Below are positions 1-6,151 of a DNA stretch of 6,151 nt, in pieces. A model generated the notes under the pieces. The model saw only the letters and a program-made list of their open reading frames with translations. It searched no databases and was not told the DNA's origin. A program made the position numbers and the translations under genes. The number at the start of each line of letters is the position of its first letter. The stretch's first letter is position 1. Location of the stretch: IMG/VR virus record IMGVR_UViG_3300029248_000066; one strand, written 5' to 3'. Origin of the DNA: a virus. Lineage: Duplodnaviria; Heunggongvirae; Uroviricota; Caudoviricetes.

Positions 1-234
1 TGGCGAGCAAGTGATACGATGTTAATCGCCTGCCAGAACGTTACTCCACTTCTTCAGGTTGCGGAGCACCGCGAAGCCGGTCGCTTTACTTCTATCAGTC
101 AGGAATATCCCCTGATACTCAGCAAGGCGCGAGCAATCCTTGCCAGAGAAACGGCGCATGTAAAATTCCAACCGTGGCAGGATGATAAGTGGAGCAGGGT
201 ATTGCCACATTTGCGTCAGGCTAGATTGCAATAG
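1..234 (+). CDS. Hypothetical protein, C-terminal part (open to the window start; first in-window ATG at 19)
   Basis: Frame is open from position 1 to TAG at 232-234. Same strand as all downstream phage genes. No recognisable family. A mirror ORF of almost equal length exists on the minus strand, so strand assignment is uncertain. Confidence 0.3.
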   Translation, partial: WRASDTMLIACQNVTPLLQVAEHREAGRFTSISQEYPLILSKARAILARETAHVKFQPWQDDKWSRVLPHLRQARLQ

Positions 235-396
235 TTTTACATATTAGGCGCTGAATGGATGCAAGCAGGTAGCGCACTGGGCGGCAATGATTAAGGCTTC
301 AGATAAGCCAAGTAAGCACTGAAGAAGTTCAATGTAATCAAATTCTCTTTATGGTATTTTCGTTAGACCCCTCATGCACTTAGATGGAAATTTGAA

Positions 397-597
397 ATGA
401 TGTATTCAGTGACTTTCGATGATACTGGACGAGTAGAAGATATTGAACTAGATCGTGAGGTTAGAGCCGGAGATAGACTCTCTCTTAATATTGATGGTCT
501 TGATGGTATTTATATAGTCATGACTGTTAGCGGCCCTATCTATGAAAATGTTTGTATGCCAATGAATATCCGGGTTCAAAAGTATTGGAAGCAATGA
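397..597 (+). CDS. Hypothetical small protein (66 aa), first gene of the AT-rich insertion
   Basis: ATG-initiated ORF ending TGA 595-597, followed directly by a terminator-like hairpin. AT-rich relative to the flanking phage genes. No strong Shine-Dalgarno seen and no family recognised. Confidence 0.4.
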   Translation: MMYSVTFDDTGRVEDIELDREVRAGDRLSLNIDGLDGIYIVMTVSGPIYENVCMPMNIRVQKYWKQ

Positions 598-602
598 TGT
601 AT

Positions 603-631
603 AATCCCCTCAGATGCTCGAGGGGATTTTT
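603..631 (+). terminator. Intrinsic-terminator-like hairpin (9-bp stem AATCCCCTC/GAGGGGATT, 8-nt loop) followed by a T-run
   Basis: Perfect 9-bp complementarity between 603-611 and 620-628, followed by TTTTT then AT. The right arm (GAGGGG) doubles as the likely Shine-Dalgarno for the ATG at 632. Confidence 0.5.
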
Positions 632-859
632 ATGTCAGACTGGAACATTGCAGCAAAACCGCAAAAGGAACGTGACAAGGTAAGCGTTGGCCTTGCGCTT
701 TCAGGTGTAGCGTATAAAGAACGCCCGAACATGCCGGTTATAGCTAAACAGGTAGCTAGAGAACAACTTGGGCATCTCCGCGAGTACTTAATGGATCGCG
801 TCCGTTATTACCGTAAGCAGAGCATCACCTTCCAAAAGCATCCGAACCACGCTACATAG
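632..859 (+). CDS. Hypothetical small basic protein (75 aa)
   Basis: ATG at 632 lies 6 nt downstream of GAGGGG (620-625); stop TAG 857-859. The ORF track's upstream ATG at 614 sits in the hairpin loop with no Shine-Dalgarno, so 632 is preferred. GC content is host-like. No family recognised. Confidence 0.5.
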   Translation: MSDWNIAAKPQKERDKVSVGLALSGVAYKERPNMPVIAKQVAREQLGHLREYLMDRVRYYRKQSITFQKHPNHAT

Positions 860-874
860 AAATGGCAGACTTAA

Positions 875-1462
875 ATGCAAGAAAATGAAAAGCAAGAGCA
901 GCATGAAACTGAACCTCAGGATTTAGATTTTCCAGCAGAATTTGACTCTCTGATTAATGCAAATGGAAAGATAACACCTGCATTGCTAACGGTAGTTAAC
1001 CGGTATTTTTTATATTTTTCATTCTTTGAATCACTTCTTTTGGGGTGTTCTGGAAGTCAGGGGAAGAGTTCGAAATACGCAGCGAAATTGTTGGAATTCA
1101 AATTAGTTGATCTTGACGTTCTTAAGCGAACATACTTCTTTTTTGCAGACCGTTATCTGGCAGATGTAGTGAAGTTTGAAAACCTATGTGGTGATTTAGA
1201 GCATACATCGCAGAAGGCTAGGGATGAAAAAATTAAGGCCATGCAATTAAAGACAAACGACCCTGAAATTCAGTTAGGTGTTTGTATTTTTGTTTGTTTC
1301 AGGTTGCGAAACAACCTTTTTCATGGACCAAAATGGCGTTATTTGCTTGATGGGCAAGAGGATTTGCTCTTAATTGCCGGAAATTTTATACATTCTATTC
1401 TATTACAGGTGCCTAGTAGAGATGGCTGGGAATTCAAGAATATTTTAACTTCTACTGATTAG
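875..1462 (+). CDS. Hypothetical protein (195 aa), AT-rich, with C-terminal HEPN-like motif R145-N-N-L-F-H150 (candidate HEPN RNase / toxin or abortive-infection effector)
   Basis: Single long ORF, ATG 875 to TAG 1460-1462. Manual counts suggest under 40% GC against about 50% for neighbouring phage genes. Codons 1307-1324 encode RNNLFH, which fits the HEPN active-site signature Rx4-6H in its common R-N-x-x-x-H form. Acidic N-terminus. Confidence 0.6.
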   Translation: MQENEKQEQHETEPQDLDFPAEFDSLINANGKITPALLTVVNRYFLYFSFFESLLLGCSGSQGKSSKYAAKLLEFKLVDLDVLKRTYFFFADRYLADVVKFENLCGDLEHTSQKARDEKIKAMQLKTNDPEIQLGVCIFVCFRLRNNLFHGPKWRYLLDGQEDLLLIAGNFIHSILLQVPSRDGWEFKNILTSTD

Positions 1463-1529
1463 CTTTGATTTTCCATAATCAACCCGCCATAATCATGTCA
1501 TCGGAGCCTGAACAACTCCGGTGACTTCT

Positions 1530-1553
1530 GCGCTTTGAGGGGACTCAAAGTGC
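1530..1553. other. Stable hairpin / palindrome (10-bp stem with one G-U pair, GGGA loop) in the intergenic region, without a U-tract
   Basis: CTTTGAG (1533-1539) pairs with CTCAAAG (1544-1550), extendable by 3 bp. No T-run on either strand, so not a classical intrinsic terminator. Confidence 0.3.
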
Positions 1554-1647
1554 AAACGACAATCAGAACACCTTTCAACCAGTCACAGATGCAGAAATGC
1601 ACCTGCGATTTTTTGCATCCAACGTTTGACCTCTGCGGAGGTGAAGC

Positions 1648-2103
1648 GTGAACCTCCCACAAGACGGCATCAAATTACATCGCGGTAACTTCACCGCTAT
1701 CGGTAAGCAGATCCAGCCTTATCTGGAGGACGGAAAATGCTTTCGCATGGTGCTTAAACCGTGGCGCGAGAGACGCAGTCTTTCCCAGAATGCACTCAGC
1801 CACATGTGGTACAGCGAAATCAGTGAGTACCTCATCAGCAGGGGGAAATCGTTCGCTACTGCAGCATGGGTAAAAGATGCTCTCAAACACACATACCTCG
1901 GTTATGAAACCAAGGACCTGGTTGATGTCGTAACCGGCGAAATCACTACGATCCAGTCGTTACGCCATACCTCCGATCTTGATACCGGAGAGATGTATGT
2001 CTTCCTGTGTAAGGTTGAAGCCTGGGCGATGAATATTGGCTGCCACCTGACTATTCCGCAGAGCTGCGAGTTCCAGCTGCTGCGCGACAAGCAGGAGGCG
2101 TAA
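1648..2103 (+). CDS. ybcN: YbcN-like protein (DLP12 prophage DNA base-flipping protein family, NinB/Orf-like), 151 aa
   Basis: Translation is near-identical to the recalled E. coli K-12 DLP12 YbcN ([15 protein letters not shown]...QLLRDKQEA). GTG start at 1648 with GGAGG (1636-1640) 7 nt upstream. Stop TAA overlaps the ninE ATG (TAATG). Confidence 0.9.
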
Positions 2104-2273
2104 TGGCTACACCGCTTATTCGGGTCATGAACGGACACATCTACAGAGTACCAAATCGTCGTAAGCGTAAGCCTGAGCTGAAGCCATCCGAAATACCAAC
2201 ACTGCTAGGGTATACCGCCAGCCTGGTTGATAAAAAATGGTTGCGACTGGCAGCAAGGAGGAATCATGGCTGA
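2103..2273 (+). CDS. ninE: NinE family protein, 56 aa
   Basis: ATG 2103 overlapping the ybcN stop; translation [56 protein letters not shown] matches recalled NinE. Below the ORF-track length cutoff, found by manual translation. Confidence 0.85.
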   Translation: MATPLIRVMNGHIYRVPNRRKRKPELKPSEIPTLLGYTASLVDKKWLRLAARRNHG

Positions 2274-2556
2274 TTTGAGAAAAGCAGCGCGTGGTCGGGA
2301 ATGCCAGGTAAGAATCCCTGGCATATGTAATGGCAACCCTGAAACGTCTGTACTGGCACATATCCGGCTGGCTGGATTGTGTGGCACCGGTACCAAACCG
2401 CCAGACCTGATTGCCACCATTGCATGTTCTGCCTGTCACGATGAGATCGACCGTCGCACGCATTTTGTTGACGCTGGATATGCAAAAGAATGCGCGCTGG
2501 AAGGTATGGCGAGAACACAGGTTATCTGGCTGAAAGAGGGGGTTATTAACGCGTGA
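2266..2556 (+). CDS. ybcO: YbcO-like protein (DLP12 prophage putative nuclease, DUF1364 family), 96 aa
   Basis: ATG 2266 ([23 protein letters not shown]...) preceded by AGGAGG and overlapping the ninE stop by 8 nt. The ORF track's TTG at 2227 is rejected as an upstream extension. Cysteine-rich pattern and 96-aa length match recalled YbcO. Confidence 0.85.
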
Positions 2557-2915
2557 ATACCTACAGCATCACATTACCCTGGCCTCCGAGCAATAATCGC
2601 TATTACCGCCATAATCGCGGGCGCACGCACGTCAGCGCAGAGGGACAGGCATACCGCGATAACGTCGCTCAAATCATTAAAAACGCAATGCTGGATATCG
2701 GCCTGGCTATGCCTGTGAAAATCCGCATTGAGTGCCACATGCCGGATCGCCGTCGCCGTGACCTGGATAATCTACAAAAGGCCGCTTTTGACGCACTCAC
2801 CAAAGCAGGTTTCTGGTTGGATGATGCTCAGGTCGTTGATTATCGCGTTGTGAAGATGCCCGTTACCAAAGGTGGGAAGCTGGAGCTGACCATCACCGAA
2901 CTGGGAGATGAATGA
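2553..2915 (+). CDS. rusA: Holliday junction resolvase RusA (endodeoxyribonuclease), 120 aa
   Basis: Translation [37 protein letters not shown]...ELGDE closely matches recalled E. coli RusA. GTG start overlaps the ybcO stop (GTGA). Confidence 0.95.
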
Positions 2916-3052
2916 TGTTTGAGTCTTATATGGCAGAACGTCTTCGCCGCCGCTGGGTGCGCCTGCGCTTATATCGTTTTCCCGGTTCTGTTTTGACCGA
3001 TTACCGAATACTGAAGAATTACGCCAAAACACTGAAAGGAGCTGCCGCATGA
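2912..3052 (+). CDS. ylcG: YlcG-like small protein, 46 aa
   Basis: ATG 2912 overlaps the rusA stop (ATGA); translation [46 protein letters not shown]; stop TGA 3050-3052 overlaps the next ATG. Position matches ylcG downstream of rusA in DLP12. Found by manual translation. Confidence 0.75.
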
Positions 3053-3738
3053 ATATCCAATATTTACAGTATGTTCGCGAGCAACTCATGGTGGCTACCG
3101 CTGATTTGAGCGGAGTAACGAAAGGCCAGCTTGAAGCCTGGCTGGAGCATGCTCAATTTGATACTGGTACATACAAACGAAAGAAGCCGCGCATTCTGGA
3201 TGAGGTAACTGGCAGGATGATTACGCTGGATAATCCGCCGATTTCCGGTAAGCAGTCGTACGCAAAAGGTTCATCCATTGCACTGGTCAGCCAGGTTGAG
3301 TTCTCAACATCTTCATGGCGCCGCGCGGTTCTGTCTCTCGAAGAACATCAGAAAGCGTGGTTGCTGTGGAGTTACAGCGAAAGTGTTCGCTGGGAGCATC
3401 AGGTTGCCATAACGCAGTGGGCATGGAACGAGTTTAAAGCTCTGTTAGGTACAAGAAAAATTGCCAGTAAGACACTGGAACGCTTAAAGAAGTTGATCTG
3501 GCTGGCGGCACAGGATGTGAAGAACGAGCTGGCAGGGCGTAAGACCTATGAATACCAGGAGCTGGCATCACTGGTGGGAGTGACATCAAAAAACTGGTCT
3601 GAGACATTTACTGAACGCTGGGTTGCAATGAAGCACATTTTTCTACAGCTTGATAGCCAAGCTTTATTGCTTTTAACGAAAACACGTTCAAAACAAAAGA
3701 CGACATTTTCACAGCAAAGTATTGCAAAACTGGATTAA
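3049..3738 (+). CDS. Putative late-gene antitermination protein Q (phage 82 / Q-like, non-lambda type), 229 aa
   Basis: Sits between rusA-ylcG and a promoter/terminator pair plus lysis cassette, the canonical Q position; phage 82 is known to have rusA next to Q. The protein has no cysteine, so it is not a lambda-Q zinc-finger type. Assignment is by synteny and recalled family resemblance, not by a verified alignment. Confidence 0.6.
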   Translation: MNIQYLQYVREQLMVATADLSGVTKGQLEAWLEHAQFDTGTYKRKKPRILDEVTGRMITLDNPPISGKQSYAKGSSIALVSQVEFSTSSWRRAVLSLEEHQKAWLLWSYSESVRWEHQVAITQWAWNEFKALLGTRKIASKTLERLKKLIWLAAQDVKNELAGRKTYEYQELASLVGVTSKNWSETFTERWVAMKHIFLQLDSQALLLLTKTRSKQKTTFSQQSIAKLD

Positions 3739-3750
3739 AAAGCATATATT
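3722..3750 (+). promoter_or_regulatory. Candidate sigma70 late promoter (PR'-like): -35 TTGCAA, 17-bp spacer, -10 TATATT
   Basis: TTGCAA at 3722-3727 and TATATT at 3745-3750 with a 17-nt spacer, straddling the Q stop. A -10-like TGATATTTT (3762-3770) lies in the predicted early transcribed region, consistent with the sigma-dependent pause used for Q loading in lambdoid phages. Confidence 0.4.
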
Positions 3751-3919
3751 TCGTGTAAATCTGATATTTTGCCAATGTTGTACGCACTGGCAGTAATCCA
3801 AATTCAAGCTCGAGGTTTAAAGCCTTGGGCTTTTCTGTTTCTGGGCGGTGAGTATCCTTCCGACGTACCCCAGCCAGGGTGTCTTCAGCTGTTGAGTTGA
3901 TATTGCTTAACCCTCTGTT

Positions 3920-3942
3920 GCCAGCTACATGCTGGCTTTTTT
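3920..3942 (+). terminator. Rho-independent terminator (tR'-like): stem GCCAGC/GCTGGC, loop TACAT, then TTTTTT
   Basis: Perfect 6-bp GC-rich stem (3920-3925 / 3931-3936) followed by six T (3937-3942), about 170-185 nt downstream of the candidate late promoter, analogous to lambda tR' which yields the short 6S transcript. Confidence 0.6.
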
Positions 3943-4059
3943 ATTCCAGGCTTGCGGGGAGCATCAACTCCGTGCTTTGTCGTTAAATTACCCCGTGAGC
4001 CTGATTTCTGACATTTAACGTCCCGGCCTTTTGTCGGCGGCGAAACATTGGCTATTCAT

Positions 4060-4365
4060 ATGCACGAAAAAGAGAGCCTTGCCGGAGCGTTCTGGCTCGT
4101 TTTGCTGATCATCGCAGGTTGGGGCGGTCTGGTCCGCTACCTGATAGATGTGAAGCAGAGTAAAGCAACGTGGAGTTGGATAAATGCTCTGGCTCAGATA
4201 GTGGTATCAGGATTCACCGGTGTTATTGGTGGCCTGATCAGCATCGAAAGTGGATTCAGTATTTACATGATTCTCGCGACAGCGGGGATTAGTGGTGCGA
4301 TGGGTTCGGTTGCACTGACGTACTTCTGGGAACGACTGACAGGGGTGAAAAATGCAAAATCTTAA
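4060..4365 (+). CDS. Putative holin (class I-like, three predicted transmembrane segments, charged C-terminus); alternative upstream TTG start at 4048
   Basis: Small membrane protein with three hydrophobic stretches (AFWLVLLIIAGWGGLV; WINALAQIVVSGFTGVIGGLISI; IYMILATAGISGAMGSVALTYFW) and basic tail ERLTGVKNAKS. It immediately precedes and overlaps the endolysin R gene by 14 nt. Not a lambda S homologue by sequence. Confidence 0.75.
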   Translation: MHEKESLAGAFWLVLLIIAGWGGLVRYLIDVKQSKATWSWINALAQIVVSGFTGVIGGLISIESGFSIYMILATAGISGAMGSVALTYFWERLTGVKNAKS

Positions 4366-4827
4366 TCCTCAGCGTAAGGCTTTCCTCGATATGGTGGCAT
4401 GGTCAGAAGGAACGGATAACGGGCGACAACCGACACGTAATCACGGTTATGATGTTATTGTTGGCGGCGAACTGTTTACTGATTACTCTGATCACCCTCG
4501 CAAACTTGTCACGTTAAACCCCAAACTCAAATCAACAGCCGCCGGACGTTATCAGCTTCTTTCACGCTNNNNNNNNNNNNNNNNNNNNNNNNNNNNNNNN
4601 NNNNNNNNNNNNNNNNNNNNNNNNNNNNNNNGGCATTGCAGCAGATTAAAGAGCGTGGCGCTTTACCGATGATTGATCGCGGTGATATCCGTCAGGCTAT
4701 CGATCGTTGCAGCAATATCTGGGCGTCGTTACCTGGTGCAGGTTACGGTCAGTATGAACATAAAATCGGTGACCTGATTTCCCGGTTTAAAGAGGTTGGC
4801 GGGGTGGTAAATGAAGTTGAGCTATAA
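4352..4827 (+). CDS. R: Endolysin R, lambda-type lytic transglycosylase, interrupted by a 63-nt N-run (4569-4631)
   Basis: Both halves match recalled lambda R closely (N-terminal ...QRKAFLDM.AWSEGTDNGRQ.TRNHGYDVIVGGELFTDYSDHPRKLVTLNPKLKST.AGRYQLLSR, C-terminal ALQQIKERGALPMIDRGDIRQAIDRCSNIWASLPGAGYGQ), including the WSEGT catalytic glutamate region. ATG 4352 is preceded by GGGGTG. The span is 476 nt against the 477 expected, so the two halves are out of frame by 1 nt across the N-run. Confidence 0.85.
4569..4631. other. Run of 63 N (assembly gap or masked sequence) inside the endolysin gene
   Basis: Directly visible as n characters. Confidence 0.99.
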
Positions 4828-5272
4828 GCTAGTTATCGCTGCTTTCTTCGTTACTATTATTGGTTCTTTCATCTGGTCAGCGAATCATTACCACAATCAA
4901 GCCATTGAATACAAAAAGCAGCGCGACGAAAACGCTATGGCATTACATTCGGCTATGGCGACGATCTCTGATATGCAGAAGCGTCAACGTGACGTAGCTG
5001 AACTTGACGCCAGATACACAAAGGAGCTTGCTGATGCTAACACGACTCTCGAAAGTCTCCGTACTGATGTCTCTGCTGGTCGTAAGCGCTTGCAAATCGC
5101 CGCCACCTGTGCAAAGTCAACGACCGGAGCCAGCGGCATGGGCTATGGAGAAAGTCCAAGACTTACAGCTGATGCTGAACTCAATTATTACCGCCTCCGA
5201 AGTGGGATCGACAAGATAACTGCACAGGTTAACTACTTGCAGGAGTACATCAAGACACAGTGCCAGAAATGA
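4811..5272 (+). CDS. Rz: Spanin inner-membrane subunit Rz (i-spanin), 153 aa
   Basis: Close match to recalled lambda Rz (N-terminal TMD, ...NHY..NAI.YK.QRD.NA...QRDVAALDA.YTKELADA...). Overlaps the R stop by 17 nt. C-terminal cysteine present. Confidence 0.9.
   Translation: MKLSYKLVIAAFFVTIIGSFIWSANHYHNQAIEYKKQRDENAMALHSAMATISDMQKRQRDVAELDARYTKELADANTTLESLRTDVSAGRKRLQIAATCAKSTTGASGMGYGESPRLTADAELNYYRLRSGIDKITAQVNYLQEYIKTQCQK
5034..5219 (+). CDS. Rz1: Spanin outer-membrane lipoprotein subunit Rz1 (o-spanin), 61 aa, embedded in the +1 frame of Rz
   Basis: ATG 5034 preceded by a perfect AAGGAG (5021-5026). Signal peptide MLTRLSKVSVLMSLLVVSAC with lipobox V-S-A-C, then proline-rich KSPPPVQSQRPEP. 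Wholly inside Rz, as in lambda. The ORF track's TTG at 5004 is rejected. Confidence 0.8.
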   Translation: MLTRLSKVSVLMSLLVVSACKSPPPVQSQRPEPAAWAMEKVQDLQLMLNSIITASEVGSTR

Positions 5273-5280
5273 ATCTATAG

Positions 5281-5308
5281 ATGACACTCCACGTTCGTAT
5301 AAGATAAT
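5281..5308 (+). promoter_or_regulatory. Candidate promoter for the downstream AT-rich gene: -35 ATGACA, 16-bp spacer, -10 GATAAT
   Basis: ATGACA 5281-5286 and GATAAT 5303-5308, about 37 nt upstream of the ATG at 5345, in an AT-rich intergenic region. Motif match only. Confidence 0.3.
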
Positions 5309-5344
5309 GCTAAATTACTATTAGCTTAATCACAGGAGACGGAC

Positions 5345-6151
5345 ATGGAAAGAGGTGTGGTATTTAGTGCATGCGAATTACTTAAAACCGAGGATGGAAA
5401 AGGCATCCGTACAGGTAAATGGATTAGTCAATTAGAAATAAACTATCTATGTCTTTATTGGGATAAACTAGTTTCACCCACTAATAATATTATACATACA
5501 GCATTAAATAACGAGGATGAATTAGAAAAATGTGGATTGCTAACCAGACCTGTATATAGACATCATGGTTGTTTTGATGGCCAATATATGGCTGATTTTT
5601 ATGCTGAAACTCATGCCAAAACAATAGATATACTTAGGCATGCGGATTCTTCTGTCGATTGGCGCATGCATTTTTTAAGTGACCAAATAAACTTGGTGCC
5701 TGAATTATCTAGAACCTCAGAAGTGATACGTTTTGAGCTAGCAAATTTATTACCCGTTCCCACAGAAGATGTGCACCTACATGATATTCTTGATTTCAAG
5801 GAAAGAAGAAAACCTGAATTAATCGCTTTACATGAATATCTTGATGAGCTTTACTTGGAAATAAAACGTTCTGGTGATATCAATCTTCAGAAAGCAAAAG
5901 CTCTTTCTAATCTTAAACAAGCAATAAAGGATATTGAACGCTTAAATTGTGAAGTGTGGAAAAGTCCAATAAAATTTAGCATCTCCACTTCCTTTGAGTT
6001 CGATTTTTCACAAATATTTAGTCTGGCGGGAACTGTTTTATCTATGTCAGTAGATTATCCTTATAATGTTATTGGAGGGGTAAGTAGTTTTGCTTATTTT
6101 TTGGGAGGATGCATAAAAATAAAGCCACAATTTCAACAAGTGTTATCATTA
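5345..6151 (+). CDS. Hypothetical protein, AT-rich moron-like gene, at least 269 aa (3' end beyond window); function unknown
   Basis: ATG 5345 with AGGAG (5334-5338) 6 nt upstream. Manual translation (MERGVVFSACELLKTEDGKGIRTGKWISQLEINYLCLYWDKLVSP...) is open for 269 codons to the window end. Missing from the ORF track because no stop lies inside the window. Manual GC counts of about 30-42% per 60 nt against about 50% for the adjacent lysis genes. No family recognised. Confidence 0.6.
   Translation, partial: MERGVVFSACELLKTEDGKGIRTGKWISQLEINYLCLYWDKLVSPTNNIIHTALNNEDELEKCGLLTRPVYRHHGCFDGQYMADFYAETHAKTIDILRHADSSVDWRMHFLSDQINLVPELSRTSEVIRFELANLLPVPTEDVHLHDILDFKERRKPELIALHEYLDELYLEIKRSGDINLQKAKALSNLKQAIKDIERLNCEVWKSPIKFSISTSFEFDFSQIFSLAGTVLSMSVDYPYNVIGGVSSFAYFLGGCIKIKPQFQQVLSL

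What the first reader, a model, noticed from the sequence alone, without database searches (positions are those of the whole stretch)
5281..6151. AT-rich ORF downstream of Rz/Rz1 with its own promoter-like signal and Shine-Dalgarno, running off the window
The slot between the lysis cassette and the packaging genes is a classic moron site in lambdoid phages (bor and similar). Here it holds a forward-strand ORF of at least 269 aa with markedly lower GC than the lysis genes and no motif I can assign. That makes it a candidate lysogenic-conversion or anti-phage defence gene, and the system may continue beyond the window.
Basis: partly seen in the sequence, partly recalled or inferred. Interest (0 to 1): 0.65.

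Follow-up and report, generated by a model that had tools for sequence, protein, structure and literature searches.

The report
Self-promoted prophage cargo gene (DUF6236)
Just after the lysis genes of an E. coli lambdoid prophage sits a single, foreign-looking gene of the uncharacterised DUF6236 family that brings its own promoter; it repeatedly lands in the cargo slots where temperate phages keep defence genes, so it is a reasonable but untested anti-phage candidate and not a new kind of system.

Summary
An ORF starts at ATG 5345 (SD AGGAGA 5334-5339), runs off the window after 269 codons, and has 34% GC against 47% for the rest of the window. The full gene is 287 aa, so only 18 codons are missing. 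In complete genomes it is followed by HNH endonuclease, small terminase and large terminase, so no multi-gene system continues downstream.

The protein belongs to Pfam DUF6236 (E 2e-31). It is identical to RefSeq WP_021556491.1 and occurs in 32 of 5426 complete E. coli genomes. It matches no PADLOC or NCBIfam model and no solved structure, shows no fusions or conserved partner gene, and no searchable paper text names the family.

It behaves as an autonomous cargo cassette. Homology with sister prophages breaks at the Rz stop and resumes at the HNH start, and those prophages carry other genes in the slot. A conserved extended -10 promoter (TGcTAAATT, 5308-5316) travels with the gene. Homologs sit after lysis genes, after tail genes, in the cos-proximal P2-family defence hotspot (system #125 in Rousset 2022, untested), beside RM, SIR2-HerA and a PADLOC candidate-system gene (PDC-S26), or alone in chromosomes.

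The best reading is a lysogen-expressed single-protein defence or exclusion factor. Its mechanism is unknown.

The parts
5271..6151 (+). Cargo cassette (about 1010 bp in full; the last ~129 bp lie beyond the window): promoter, leader, DUF6236 ORF and an AT-rich tail
   Evidence: Homology between OW1E2 (with the gene) and NCTC9066 (with KilA-N cargo) ends 2 nt before the Rz stop and resumes 4 nt before the HNH ATG. That corresponds to L002:11807-12816, and window coordinate = L002 minus 6536. Alternative cargo in the same slot is shown.
5306..5316 (+). Conserved promoter element AATGCTAAATT, an extended -10 (TG 5308-5309, hexamer TAAATT 5311-5316)
   Evidence: An exact or near-exact motif lies at -44..-34 from the ATG in homolog loci with unrelated upstream flanks. 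It occurs in 50 of 80 loci (shuffle mean 5, maximum 14) and in 26 of 55 dereplicated upstream sequences (expected 3.85). The invariant positions (TG, T1, A2, T6) are those of the sigma-70 extended -10 consensus (established knowledge).
5281..5308 (+).
   Evidence: Consensus scan gives 10 of 12 matches, but the count of such sites in the region is not above shuffles. These hexamers are not conserved in the homolog upstream regions.
5334..5339 (+). Shine-Dalgarno AGGAGA, 5 nt before the ATG
   Evidence: Read directly from the sequence.
5345..6151 (+). DUF6236 family protein, codons 1-269 of 287 (cut by the window end)
   Evidence: Translation. The full gene is in XH990 and OW1E2, WP_021556491.1. 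Pfam PF19749 E 2.4e-31, 109.5 bits against a cut-off of 26.2. PHROG 23128, E 5e-144. dN/dS is about 0.08 against homologs of 72% identity.
4811..5272 (+). Rz spanin gene (with Rz1 embedded at 5004-5219): the left flank of the cargo slot, not part of the cassette
   Evidence: Pfam Phage_lysis E 7.6e-39. The Rz1 ORF has a lipobox and a Pro-rich sequence.

Best explanation
Window ~5271-6151 is the first 880 bp of a ~1-kb autonomous single-gene cargo cassette (a 'moron') inserted between the Rz/Rz1 spanin genes and the HNH-terminase packaging module of a lambdoid E. coli prophage.

Shown: the cassette consists of its own sigma-70 extended -10 promoter, a strong SD and one 287-aa cytoplasmic protein of the DUF6236 family. 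It has foreign base composition, is under strong purifying selection, has no partner gene, and recurs in the accessory-gene slots of many unrelated temperate phages.

Inferred: it is transcribed from its own promoter in the lysogen, and also by read-through of the Q-antiterminated late transcript because no terminator separates it from Rz. It acts as a self-contained, single-protein anti-phage defence or superinfection-exclusion factor that benefits the lysogen.

Speculative: the N-terminal Rossmann-like alpha/beta domain, with the conserved residues W39-D40, R68, W106 and R129, is the sensing or catalytic site, and the long helical hairpin (aa 145-203, with conserved F151-K152, H163, Y170) mediates oligomerisation or activation. 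HepS-type solo abortive-infection proteins are the working analogy.
For: Gene and family. The exhaustive profile search finds 1726 cluster representatives, all of ~280-300 aa among the 150 listed, with no fusions.

Cargo status:
- The breakpoints fall exactly at the Rz stop and the HNH start.
- The same slot holds KilA-N plus 2 ORFs in NCTC9066, KilA-N, DUF1398 and YlcI in CUPS04, and DUF6979 plus an ORF in LR-50.
- The identical gene sits in two prophages with different early regions.
- The gene's GC is below that of its flanks in 74 of 74 viral loci, mean 0.40 against 0.52.

Own promoter: the conserved TGnTAnnnT at a fixed distance from the ATG.

Selection: dN/dS is about 0.08, and the gene is annotated as a DUF6236 family protein at full-length coverage in 31 of 32 E. 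coli genomes.

No partner: there is no recurrent neighbour in 35 taxonomically broad genomic loci.

Defence lead:
- Homologs lie directly upstream of gpQ/gpP in phiCTX-like P2-family prophages (L113, L114, L119). This cos-proximal slot is the defence hotspot defined by Rousset et al. 2022 (PMC9122126).
- That paper's Table S5B lists 'System #125, DUF6236, 23 occurrences in the P2 hotspot'. Its protein aligns end to end with ours (30% identity, E 4e-49).
- Known or candidate defence genes are directly adjacent in other loci: type IIG RM (L043), SIR2+HerA (L045) and PDC-S26 (L019).
- Of 74 IMG/VR loci, 43 lie after lysis genes of five lysin types, 5 after tail genes and 3 in the P2 cos slot.
- Orphan chromosomal copies with conserved synteny in Psychrobacter show a function that does not depend on the phage cycle.
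Against: No experiment exists. DUF6236, PF19749 and the protein accession appear in no searchable paper text, and Rousset et al. did not test system #125 (the family is absent from their tested-systems tables).

No PADLOC v2.0.0 model matches even at E<=1.

The defence-neighbour signal is modest. About 4-5 of 32 genomic loci have a defence gene within three genes, and most neighbours are housekeeping genes.

The P2 hotspot also holds non-defence cargo such as partition systems and cytolethal distending toxin (PMC9122126).

There is no catalytic motif. The R155-x7-H163 spacing is not a HEPN motif, and R154/R155 are not conserved in the P2-hotspot homolog.

No terminator follows the gene in E. 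coli, so the classical moron anatomy is incomplete.

The gene is co-oriented with the late operon, so a role in the lytic cycle is not excluded.
Confidence: 0.45

Rival explanations
1. It is lysogenic-conversion or host-fitness cargo unrelated to phage defence, for example a stress, metabolic or virulence-associated cytoplasmic protein. On this reading it is expressed from its own promoter in the lysogen, as bor is in lambda or ctx in phiCTX.
For: It occupies the same slot as lambda bor (established knowledge) and as ctx in phiCTX: homology to phiCTX starts at the portal gene, immediately after the DUF6236 gene. Many chromosomal copies sit among housekeeping or miscellaneous genes such as acetyltransferases, photolyase and NnrS. 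The P2 hotspot also carries non-defence cargo.
Against: There is no signal peptide, lipobox or predicted TM segment. The N-terminus is MERGVVFSACELL, the maximum KD19 is 1.25, and Phobius was negative for the P2-hotspot homolog in Rousset Table S5B. The family spans free-living marine and soil bacteria of many phyla, which argues against a virulence role. No metabolic domain is detectable.
Confidence: 0.2
2. It is an accessory gene of the phage's own lytic cycle, expressed with the late operon. Possible roles are a lysis or packaging helper, a counter-defence protein, or an inhibitor of competing phages during induction.
For: It is co-oriented with the late operon, with no terminator between it and Rz. 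In Enterobacteriaceae it lies after the lysis genes in at least 43 of 74 viral loci. In E. coli and Klebsiella it stays linked to the HNH-TerS(P27) module down to 47% protein identity.
Against: Sister prophages with the same lysis and packaging modules lack it and carry other genes instead. It occurs with five lysin types and three small-terminase types, and also after tail genes, next to integrase and in P2-family cos slots. Orphan copies occur in non-phage chromosomal contexts. It carries a sigma-70 promoter of its own.
Confidence: 0.15
3. It is one component of a multi-gene defence system that continues beyond the window.
For: Only the fact that the window ends inside the ORF.
Against: The downstream genes in identical prophages are HNH endonuclease, TerS, TerL and portal. 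The HNH gene is present whether or not DUF6236 is. No partner gene is conserved across 35 genomic and 74 viral loci. No fusion proteins are seen.
Confidence: 0.03
4. It is selfish or neutral hitch-hiking DNA with no current function for either phage or host.
For: It is rare in E. coli (32 of 5426 genomes), AT-rich and of unknown function.
Against: dN/dS is about 0.08. Sixteen columns are invariant across 42 homologs down to 26% identity. The gene is annotated at full-length coverage in 31 of 32 genomes. The promoter is conserved. The family has 1726 cluster representatives across many phyla.
Confidence: 0.05

Closest known systems
Pfam PF19749 / DUF6236 (RefSeq 'DUF6236 family protein', WP_021556491.1; PHROG 23128)
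   Same: The window protein is a bona fide member: 109.5 bits against a cut-off of 26.2. It is identical to the RefSeq protein and aligns end to end with ~285-aa homologs.
   Different: Only profile positions 74-266 of 324 are matched, so this enterobacterial clade is shorter at the N-terminus and diverges at the C-terminus from the Pfam seed. The family has no known function, so membership explains nothing mechanistically.
System #125 ('DUF6236', 23 occurrences) of the cos-proximal hotspot of E. coli P2-like prophages, Rousset et al. 2022 (PMC9122126, Table S5B)
   Same: It is a full-length homolog (30% identity, E 4e-49) and a single-gene arrangement with no signal peptide or TM segment. It is carried as prophage hotspot cargo.
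   Different: It sits in a different phage family and slot (P2 gpA-gpQ region against lambdoid Rz-HNH). The two are too diverged to detect at the DNA level. System #125 was catalogued but not tested, so it gives no functional proof.
Classical lambdoid morons in the post-lysis slot (lambda bor; morons as defined for HK97/HK022 by Juhala, Hendrix and colleagues; my own knowledge)
   Same: It is an extra gene between conserved modules, with different base composition, its own promoter and presence/absence polymorphism among related phages.
   Different: Bor is a small outer-membrane lipoprotein on the opposite strand, whereas this is a 287-aa cytoplasmic protein on the late-operon strand. No terminator of its own was found.
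HepS of Gifsy-1, a solo HEPN abortive-infection protein (PMC13043305)
   Same: The working analogy is a single prophage-encoded protein in an accessory slot, with no partner or inhibitor gene, often on prophages but also elsewhere, inferred to be expressed in the lysogen.
   Different: There is no homology: the PDB sequence and profile searches found nothing. There is no Rx4-6H motif, since the spacing here is x7 and the arginines are not conserved. The fold and the slot are different, and activity is untested.
Csm6 / CARF-domain proteins (best Foldseek hit 6tug)
   Same: Weak overall resemblance: a Rossmann-like N-terminal domain followed by helical elements (E 0.011, probability 0.63). Cad1, another CARF protein, appears lower in the list.

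Membership tests
Pfam DUF6236 (PF19749) | Whole-protein HMM score above the curated gathering threshold | tested here: met
   109.5 bits (window fragment) and 109.7 bits (full length) against a cut-off of 26.2, E 2e-31.
Pfam DUF6236 (PF19749) | Full-length collinear alignment with other members and shared conserved residues | tested here: met
   All 88 homologs carry PF19749 only and are ~285 aa. Sixteen columns are invariant in 42 sequences. The protein aligns end to end with the P2-hotspot member.
Moron (autonomous prophage cargo gene; Juhala/Hendrix sense) | Present in some but absent from closely related phages, with sharp homology breakpoints at gene boundaries | tested here: met
   The breakpoints lie 2 nt before the Rz stop and 4 nt before the HNH start. 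Alternative cargo is seen in NCTC9066, CUPS04 and LR-50.
Moron (autonomous prophage cargo gene; Juhala/Hendrix sense) | Base composition different from the neighbouring phage genes | tested here: met
   GC is 0.341 against 0.471 in the window, and the gene is below its flanks in 74 of 74 viral loci.
Moron (autonomous prophage cargo gene; Juhala/Hendrix sense) | Own promoter | tested here: met
   This is met at the sequence level only. An extended -10 TGnTAnnnT is conserved at -42..-32 in 26 of 55 distinct upstream regions against 3.85 expected. Promoter activity was not measured.
Moron (autonomous prophage cargo gene; Juhala/Hendrix sense) | Own transcription terminator | tested here: not met
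   No terminator-like site on the + strand lies between the stop codon and HNH in OW1E2. The scan is a simple consensus scan, so a weak terminator cannot be excluded.
Known or candidate anti-phage defence systems (PADLOC-DB v2.0.0) | Match to a defence-protein HMM | tested here: not met
   0 families at E<=1. Newer DefenseFinder and PADLOC releases could not be run.
Defence-island gene (guilt by association, as in Doron et al. 2018; my own knowledge) | A large fraction of family members lie next to known defence genes | tested here: inconclusive
   Within 3 genes in 32 dereplicated genomic loci there is a type IIG RM (L043), SIR2+HerA (L045), PDC-S26 (L019) and one Shedu SduA hit whose locus I did not identify; the rest are housekeeping genes. 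Family members also lie in the P2 cos hotspot. The sample is small and only +/-3 genes were scanned.
HEPN-domain ribonucleases | Rx4-6H motif in a helical bundle | tested here: not met
Bor-like or Cor-like surface exclusion / lipoprotein morons | Signal peptide or lipobox, envelope location | tested here: not met
   The N-terminus MERGVVFSACELLKTEDG has no signal-like segment. Phobius found no signal peptide or TM segment in the P2-hotspot homolog (Table S5B).
Membrane-acting abortive-infection or exclusion effectors | At least one predicted transmembrane helix | tested here: not met
   The conserved hydrophobic G/A/S-rich segment at aa ~240-260 reaches KD19 of only 1.25 in this protein (1.25-2.09 across the family). 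AF2 models it as beta strands of low to medium confidence.
Phage structural or packaging proteins | Homology to a virion or terminase family, or obligatory presence with the module | tested here: not met
   There is no Pfam, PHROG or NCBIfam structural annotation. The HNH-TerS-TerL module occurs without the gene.

The most novel reading that the evidence does not exclude
DUF6236 is a previously unrecognised single-protein anti-phage defence (abortive infection or exclusion) family with a fold not represented in the PDB. It spreads as a ~1-kb promoter-equipped cassette between the cargo hotspots of unrelated temperate phages (lambdoid post-lysis slot, P2 cos slot, att-proximal ends) and chromosomal defence islands across many bacterial phyla.
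Probability: 0.4. Interest if true: 0.6.

Novelty: new member of a known kind. Interest (0 to 1): 0.4.

Why it matters
If DUF6236 is a defence gene, it adds a widespread family to the catalogue of one-protein immune systems. The family has about 1700 clusters at 50% identity across Proteobacteria, Bacteroidota, Campylobacterota, Nitrospirota, Firmicutes and others. Because it has no recognisable effector domain, its mechanism would probably be new.

The finding also documents the Rz-to-terminase junction of lambdoid prophages as a cargo hotspot. Four different cargo sets are seen between the lysis genes and the packaging module, three of them between identical Rz and HNH flanks. This makes the junction comparable to the P2 and P4 hotspots and usable for systematic mining.

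The conserved extended -10 that travels with the gene gives a simple, testable handle on lysogen expression.

If it is not a defence gene, it is simply one more annotated DUF in a prophage.

Tried and rejected
1. Translating from 5346 was one base out of frame; the correct start is 5345.
2. Sequence searches for a known function found nothing beyond DUF6236 and an unannotated PHROG. I ran Pfam at E<=1, NCBIfam, PADLOC, PHROGs, and PDB by phmmer and by profile.
3. Fold searches of a medium-confidence AF2 model (pLDDT 74.6, pTM 0.75) were uninformative.
   - Foldseek against the PDB gave at best E 0.011, for Csm6 and assorted Rossmann enzymes.
   - BFVD gave nothing.
   - The AFDB library was unavailable.
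4. The HEPN idea (conserved EFKERRxxELxALH) is rejected. The spacing is x7, a proline breaks the helix, and the arginines are not conserved in the P2-hotspot homolog.
5. The membrane-effector idea (conserved G/A/S-rich hydrophobic C-terminal segment) is not supported for this protein. KD19 is 1.25, and Phobius was negative for the homolog.
6. A search for a partner gene or domain fusion found none.
7. An SD-sequestering leader hairpin is present in 18 of 23 distinct homolog leaders if the bases right after the -10 are transcribed. It is absent from the window's copy and lost if the TSS is 7 nt after the -10. RNAalifold found no consensus on a MAFFT alignment. It is left unexplained.
8. Literature searches for DUF6236, PF19749 and WP_021556491 returned 0 papers. 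The only mention is one row in a supplementary table of PMC9122126. No supplementary files are held for the 2026 NAR paper on P2/P4 hotspots.
Full report
OBSERVATION

The window is the late-regulatory and lysis region of a lambdoid E. coli prophage. Its genes, in order, are:
- a P22AR C-terminal fragment (19-231)
- a HolE-like theta-subunit gene (614-859)
- an unassigned low-GC ORF (875-1462)
- NinB/ybcN, NinE, YbcO, RusA and YlcG
- antiterminator Q (3049-3738)
- holin (4048-4365)
- endolysin (4352-4827, partly masked by Ns at 4570-4631)
- Rz (4811-5272) with Rz1 embedded

Downstream of Rz an ORF starts at ATG 5345, preceded by AGGAGA (5334-5339), and stays open for 269 codons to the window end. 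Its GC is 0.341, against 0.471 for the rest of the window.

WHAT THE GENE IS

The 871-bp stretch is at least 99.7% identical to chromosomal prophage DNA in 32 of 5426 complete E. coli genomes. In all of them it is annotated 'DUF6236 family protein'. In strains XH990 and OW1E2 the gene is 864 bp (287 aa, WP_021556491.1), so the window lacks only 18 codons.

The protein scores 109.5 bits on Pfam PF19749 (cut-off 26.2) and matches PHROG 23128 of unknown function. It matches nothing in NCBIfam or PADLOC v2.0.0, even at E<=1.

A word-indexed search found 88 homologs, and a profile search found 91. All are single-domain proteins of ~285 aa. An exhaustive HMMER search of 1.84 billion representatives found 1726 clusters at E<=1e-3, with no fusions among the best 150. 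A genome scan shows members in Gamma-, Beta- and Alphaproteobacteria, Flavobacteriia, Campylobacterales, Desulfobacterales, Nitrospirota, Paraclostridium, Pelagicoccus and a cyanobacterium.

Sixteen columns are invariant across 42 sequences: W39, D40, P45, G64, W106, L136, P137, P139, F151, K152, R155, D167, Y170, D178, Y276 and L37. dN/dS against homologs of 72% identity is about 0.08. It is a real, selected protein-coding gene.

IT IS A SINGLE-GENE CARGO CASSETTE

Downstream of the gene lie HNH endonuclease, small terminase (P27 family), large terminase and portal. Nothing suggests a multi-gene system.

Comparing OW1E2 with NCTC9066, homology stops 2 nt before the Rz stop and resumes 4 nt before the HNH start codon. 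This delimits a 1010-bp insert, whose left edge corresponds to window ~5271. Other prophages hold different cargo in the slot:
- NCTC9066, with the same Rz and HNH flanks, has a KilA-N gene plus two small ORFs.
- LR-50, the closest relative over window 1-5086 and also HNH-flanked, has DUF6979 plus a small ORF.
- CUPS04 has KilA-N, DUF1398 and YlcI, followed by a Nu1-type terminase rather than HNH.

The identical DUF6236 gene occurs in prophages with different early regions: e14/ymf-like with a KAP NTPase in XH990, and lambda-like with a SIR2 protein in OW1E2. A 47%-identical Klebsiella homolog sits in the same slot in four different backbones.

I classified 74 IMG/VR loci by their neighbouring genes:
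- 43 have lysis genes within four ORFs upstream, of five different lysin types.
- 23 have packaging genes downstream, of three small-terminase types.
- 5 follow tail genes.
- 3 sit in a P2-family slot.

Other copies lie between integrase and tail fibre (Klebsiella phage Mulock), at a Vibrio prophage end, or as orphans in non-phage chromosomal contexts in Pseudoalteromonas and Psychrobacter, syntenic in three Psychrobacter genomes. Across 35 diverse genomic loci no neighbour family recurs.

The gene's GC is below that of its flanks in all 74 viral loci, mean 0.40 against 0.52.

THE PROMOTER

The generic scan finds ATGACA-16-GATAAT at 5281-5308, but such hits are not more frequent than in shuffles.

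Aligning the upstream regions of homologs shows something stronger. The motif AATGCTAAATT (window 5306-5316) contains TG-n-TAAATT. It recurs 34-44 nt before the ATG in loci whose further upstream sequence is unrelated and whose proteins are only 40-55% identical. The variable positions are the ones that vary in sigma-70 -10 hexamers: TAAATT, TACATT, TAACAT, TAATAT, TAATTT, TAGATT.

TGnTAnnnT occurs at -60..-20 in 50 of 80 loci (shuffle mean 5, maximum 14). After dereplication it occurs in 26 of 55 distinct upstream sequences (expected 3.85, maximum 11 in 500 shuffles). I read this as an extended -10 promoter that belongs to the cassette. Conservation is shown; promoter activity is inferred.

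No terminator separates Rz from the gene, or the gene from HNH. Late read-through transcription is therefore also expected.

STRUCTURE AND MECHANISM

AlphaFold2 with the 42-sequence alignment gives pLDDT 74.6 and pTM 0.75. The model has three parts:
- an N-terminal alpha/beta domain (aa 1-137)
- a long helical hairpin (145-203)
- C-terminal strands, with a low-confidence stretch at 225-251

None of the structure searches gave a significant match:
- Foldseek against the PDB gives nothing better than E 0.011. The top hit is Csm6, with TM 0.26, followed by assorted Rossmann-like enzymes.
- BFVD gives nothing.
- PDB sequence and profile searches give nothing significant.

The fold is thus not assignable with the tools at hand. 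I also rejected two specific ideas. A HEPN-like reading of EFKERRxxELxALH fails on spacing and on conservation. A membrane-effector reading fails on hydropathy (KD19 1.25) and on the Phobius result reported for a homolog.

The mechanism therefore remains a low-confidence proposal. I suggest a cytoplasmic, self-contained sensor-effector. The conserved W39-D40, R68, W106 and R129 cluster in the Rossmann-like domain would form the active or binding site, and the hairpin would act as an oligomerisation or activation element.

WHY DEFENCE IS THE LEADING FUNCTIONAL GUESS

1. Three IMG/VR loci (L113, L114, L119) are phiCTX-like P2-family prophages. In them the homolog lies directly upstream of the divergently oriented portal gpQ and terminase gpP. 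Rousset et al. 2022 define this cos-proximal gpA-gpQ region as a defence hotspot that holds old and tin (PMC9122126).
2. Table S5B of that paper lists 'System #125, DUF6236, 23 occurrences in the P2 hotspot' as a single protein with no signal peptide or TM segment. It aligns end to end with the window protein (30% identity, E 4e-49). The family is absent from the paper's tested-systems tables, so it was not tested.
3. In MAG contigs the gene lies directly next to a type IIG RM enzyme (L043), a SIR2-HerA pair (L045) and a PDC-S26 candidate (L019). One further neighbour matches Shedu SduA.
4. Solo prophage defence proteins in accessory slots have precedent, for example HepS of Gifsy-1 (PMC13043305).

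Several points count against this reading. The neighbour signal is small: about 4-5 of 32 loci, with most neighbours being housekeeping genes. The P2 hotspot also holds non-defence cargo. No experiment on the family exists.

RIVALS

A non-defence lysogenic-conversion role is possible, since the slot is that of bor and ctx. There is, however, no export signal, and the family is spread through free-living environmental bacteria.

A lytic-cycle accessory or counter-defence role fits the gene's orientation and the missing terminators. It does not fit the presence/absence polymorphism between identical modules, the orphan chromosomal copies or the sigma-70 promoter.

A multi-gene system and junk DNA are both effectively excluded.

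VERDICT

The moron interpretation is supported and sharpened: the cassette boundaries are defined, the promoter is conserved, the unit is a single gene, and the family is assigned. The defence interpretation is plausible but untested, and the idea that the system extends beyond the window is not supported.

The sequence itself is already in RefSeq under a DUF name, and the family has been catalogued once as hotspot cargo. I therefore rate it as a new member of a known kind (prophage cargo or candidate defence gene) and a reasonable candidate for testing. Interest 0.4.

Noticed in passing
window 875-1462 (+): A 195-aa ORF with low GC (~0.37-0.40) lies in the nin-region accessory slot between a HolE-like gene and ninB. 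It has no Pfam, PADLOC or PDB sequence match. It contains CFRLRNNLFHGPKW, a canonical HEPN-type R-N-x3-H motif. It is present in only 2 of 5426 complete E. coli genomes, annotated hypothetical. It is a candidate solo-HEPN defence gene, comparable in position to HepS of Gifsy-1.
   Followed up: partly
upstream regions of homolog genes, e.g. L064:5960-6003, L005:7960-8003, L096:5957-6003, L012:7967-8003: In 18 of 23 distinct homolog leaders the ~30 nt between the conserved -10 and the ATG form a hairpin or palindrome. It pairs the SD with the bases just after the -10, and the arms covary (CCCCA/TGGGG, CCTCA/GAGGA, GACTACCT/GAGGTAGTC). The window's own copy lacks it. Depending on the TSS it is either an SD-sequestering RNA hairpin or a DNA operator. 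RNAalifold on a MAFFT alignment found no consensus.
   Followed up: partly
window 4570-4631: A run of 62 Ns lies inside the endolysin gene (4352-4827). The gap has about the same length as the corresponding stretch in OW1E2, so it is masking and not a deletion.
   Followed up: yes
window 1-6151 as a whole: The window is a mosaic. Positions 1-5086 match LR-50 (96.7%), which lacks the DUF6236 cassette. Positions 1465-6151 match OW1E2, which lacks window 1-1464. No complete E. coli genome in the collection holds the whole window. One recombination breakpoint therefore lies inside Rz (~5086), and the cassette travels with the 3' part of Rz and the HNH-terminase module.
   Followed up: partly
window 614-859 (+): The prophage encodes a homolog of the DNA polymerase III theta subunit (HolE/HOT-like; Pfam DNA_pol3_theta, E 7e-25). 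In LR-50 the corresponding gene is frameshifted.
   Followed up: no
L001:9113-10444 (-) and L002:5520-7451 (+): The two E. coli prophages that carry the identical DUF6236 gene also carry other defence-type cargo in other slots. XH990 has a KAP family NTPase between Q and the holin, and OW1E2 has a SIR2 family protein between replication gene P and the nin region.
   Followed up: no
L064:7060-8394, L082:7476-8936 and 10 further IMG/VR loci (cluster C3): A ~445-487-aa protein with only a weak Glycos_transf_2 match (E 4e-5) and no PADLOC match is the immediate downstream neighbour of the DUF6236 gene in 8 loci and lies within a few genes in 4 more. It may be another cargo gene sharing the post-lysis slot, possibly for O-antigen or receptor modification.
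   Followed up: partly
L100:5153-5920 (-), L096:5369-5818 (-), L066:5510-5860 (-), L087:5359-5910 (-): Four unrelated families of small-to-medium ORFs on the opposite strand (clusters C15, C18, C24, C28; 117-256 aa) recur immediately upstream of DUF6236 genes in Klebsiella/Enterobacter-type prophages. None has a Pfam or PADLOC match. They look like further uncharacterised cargo of the same hotspot.
   Followed up: partly
L130:9807-10181 and L003:8000-9160: Alternative cargo between identical Rz and HNH flanks: a DUF6979 family protein plus a 67-aa ORF in LR-50, and a KilA-N protein plus two small ORFs in NCTC9066, the latter ending in a clear intrinsic terminator just before HNH.
   Followed up: no
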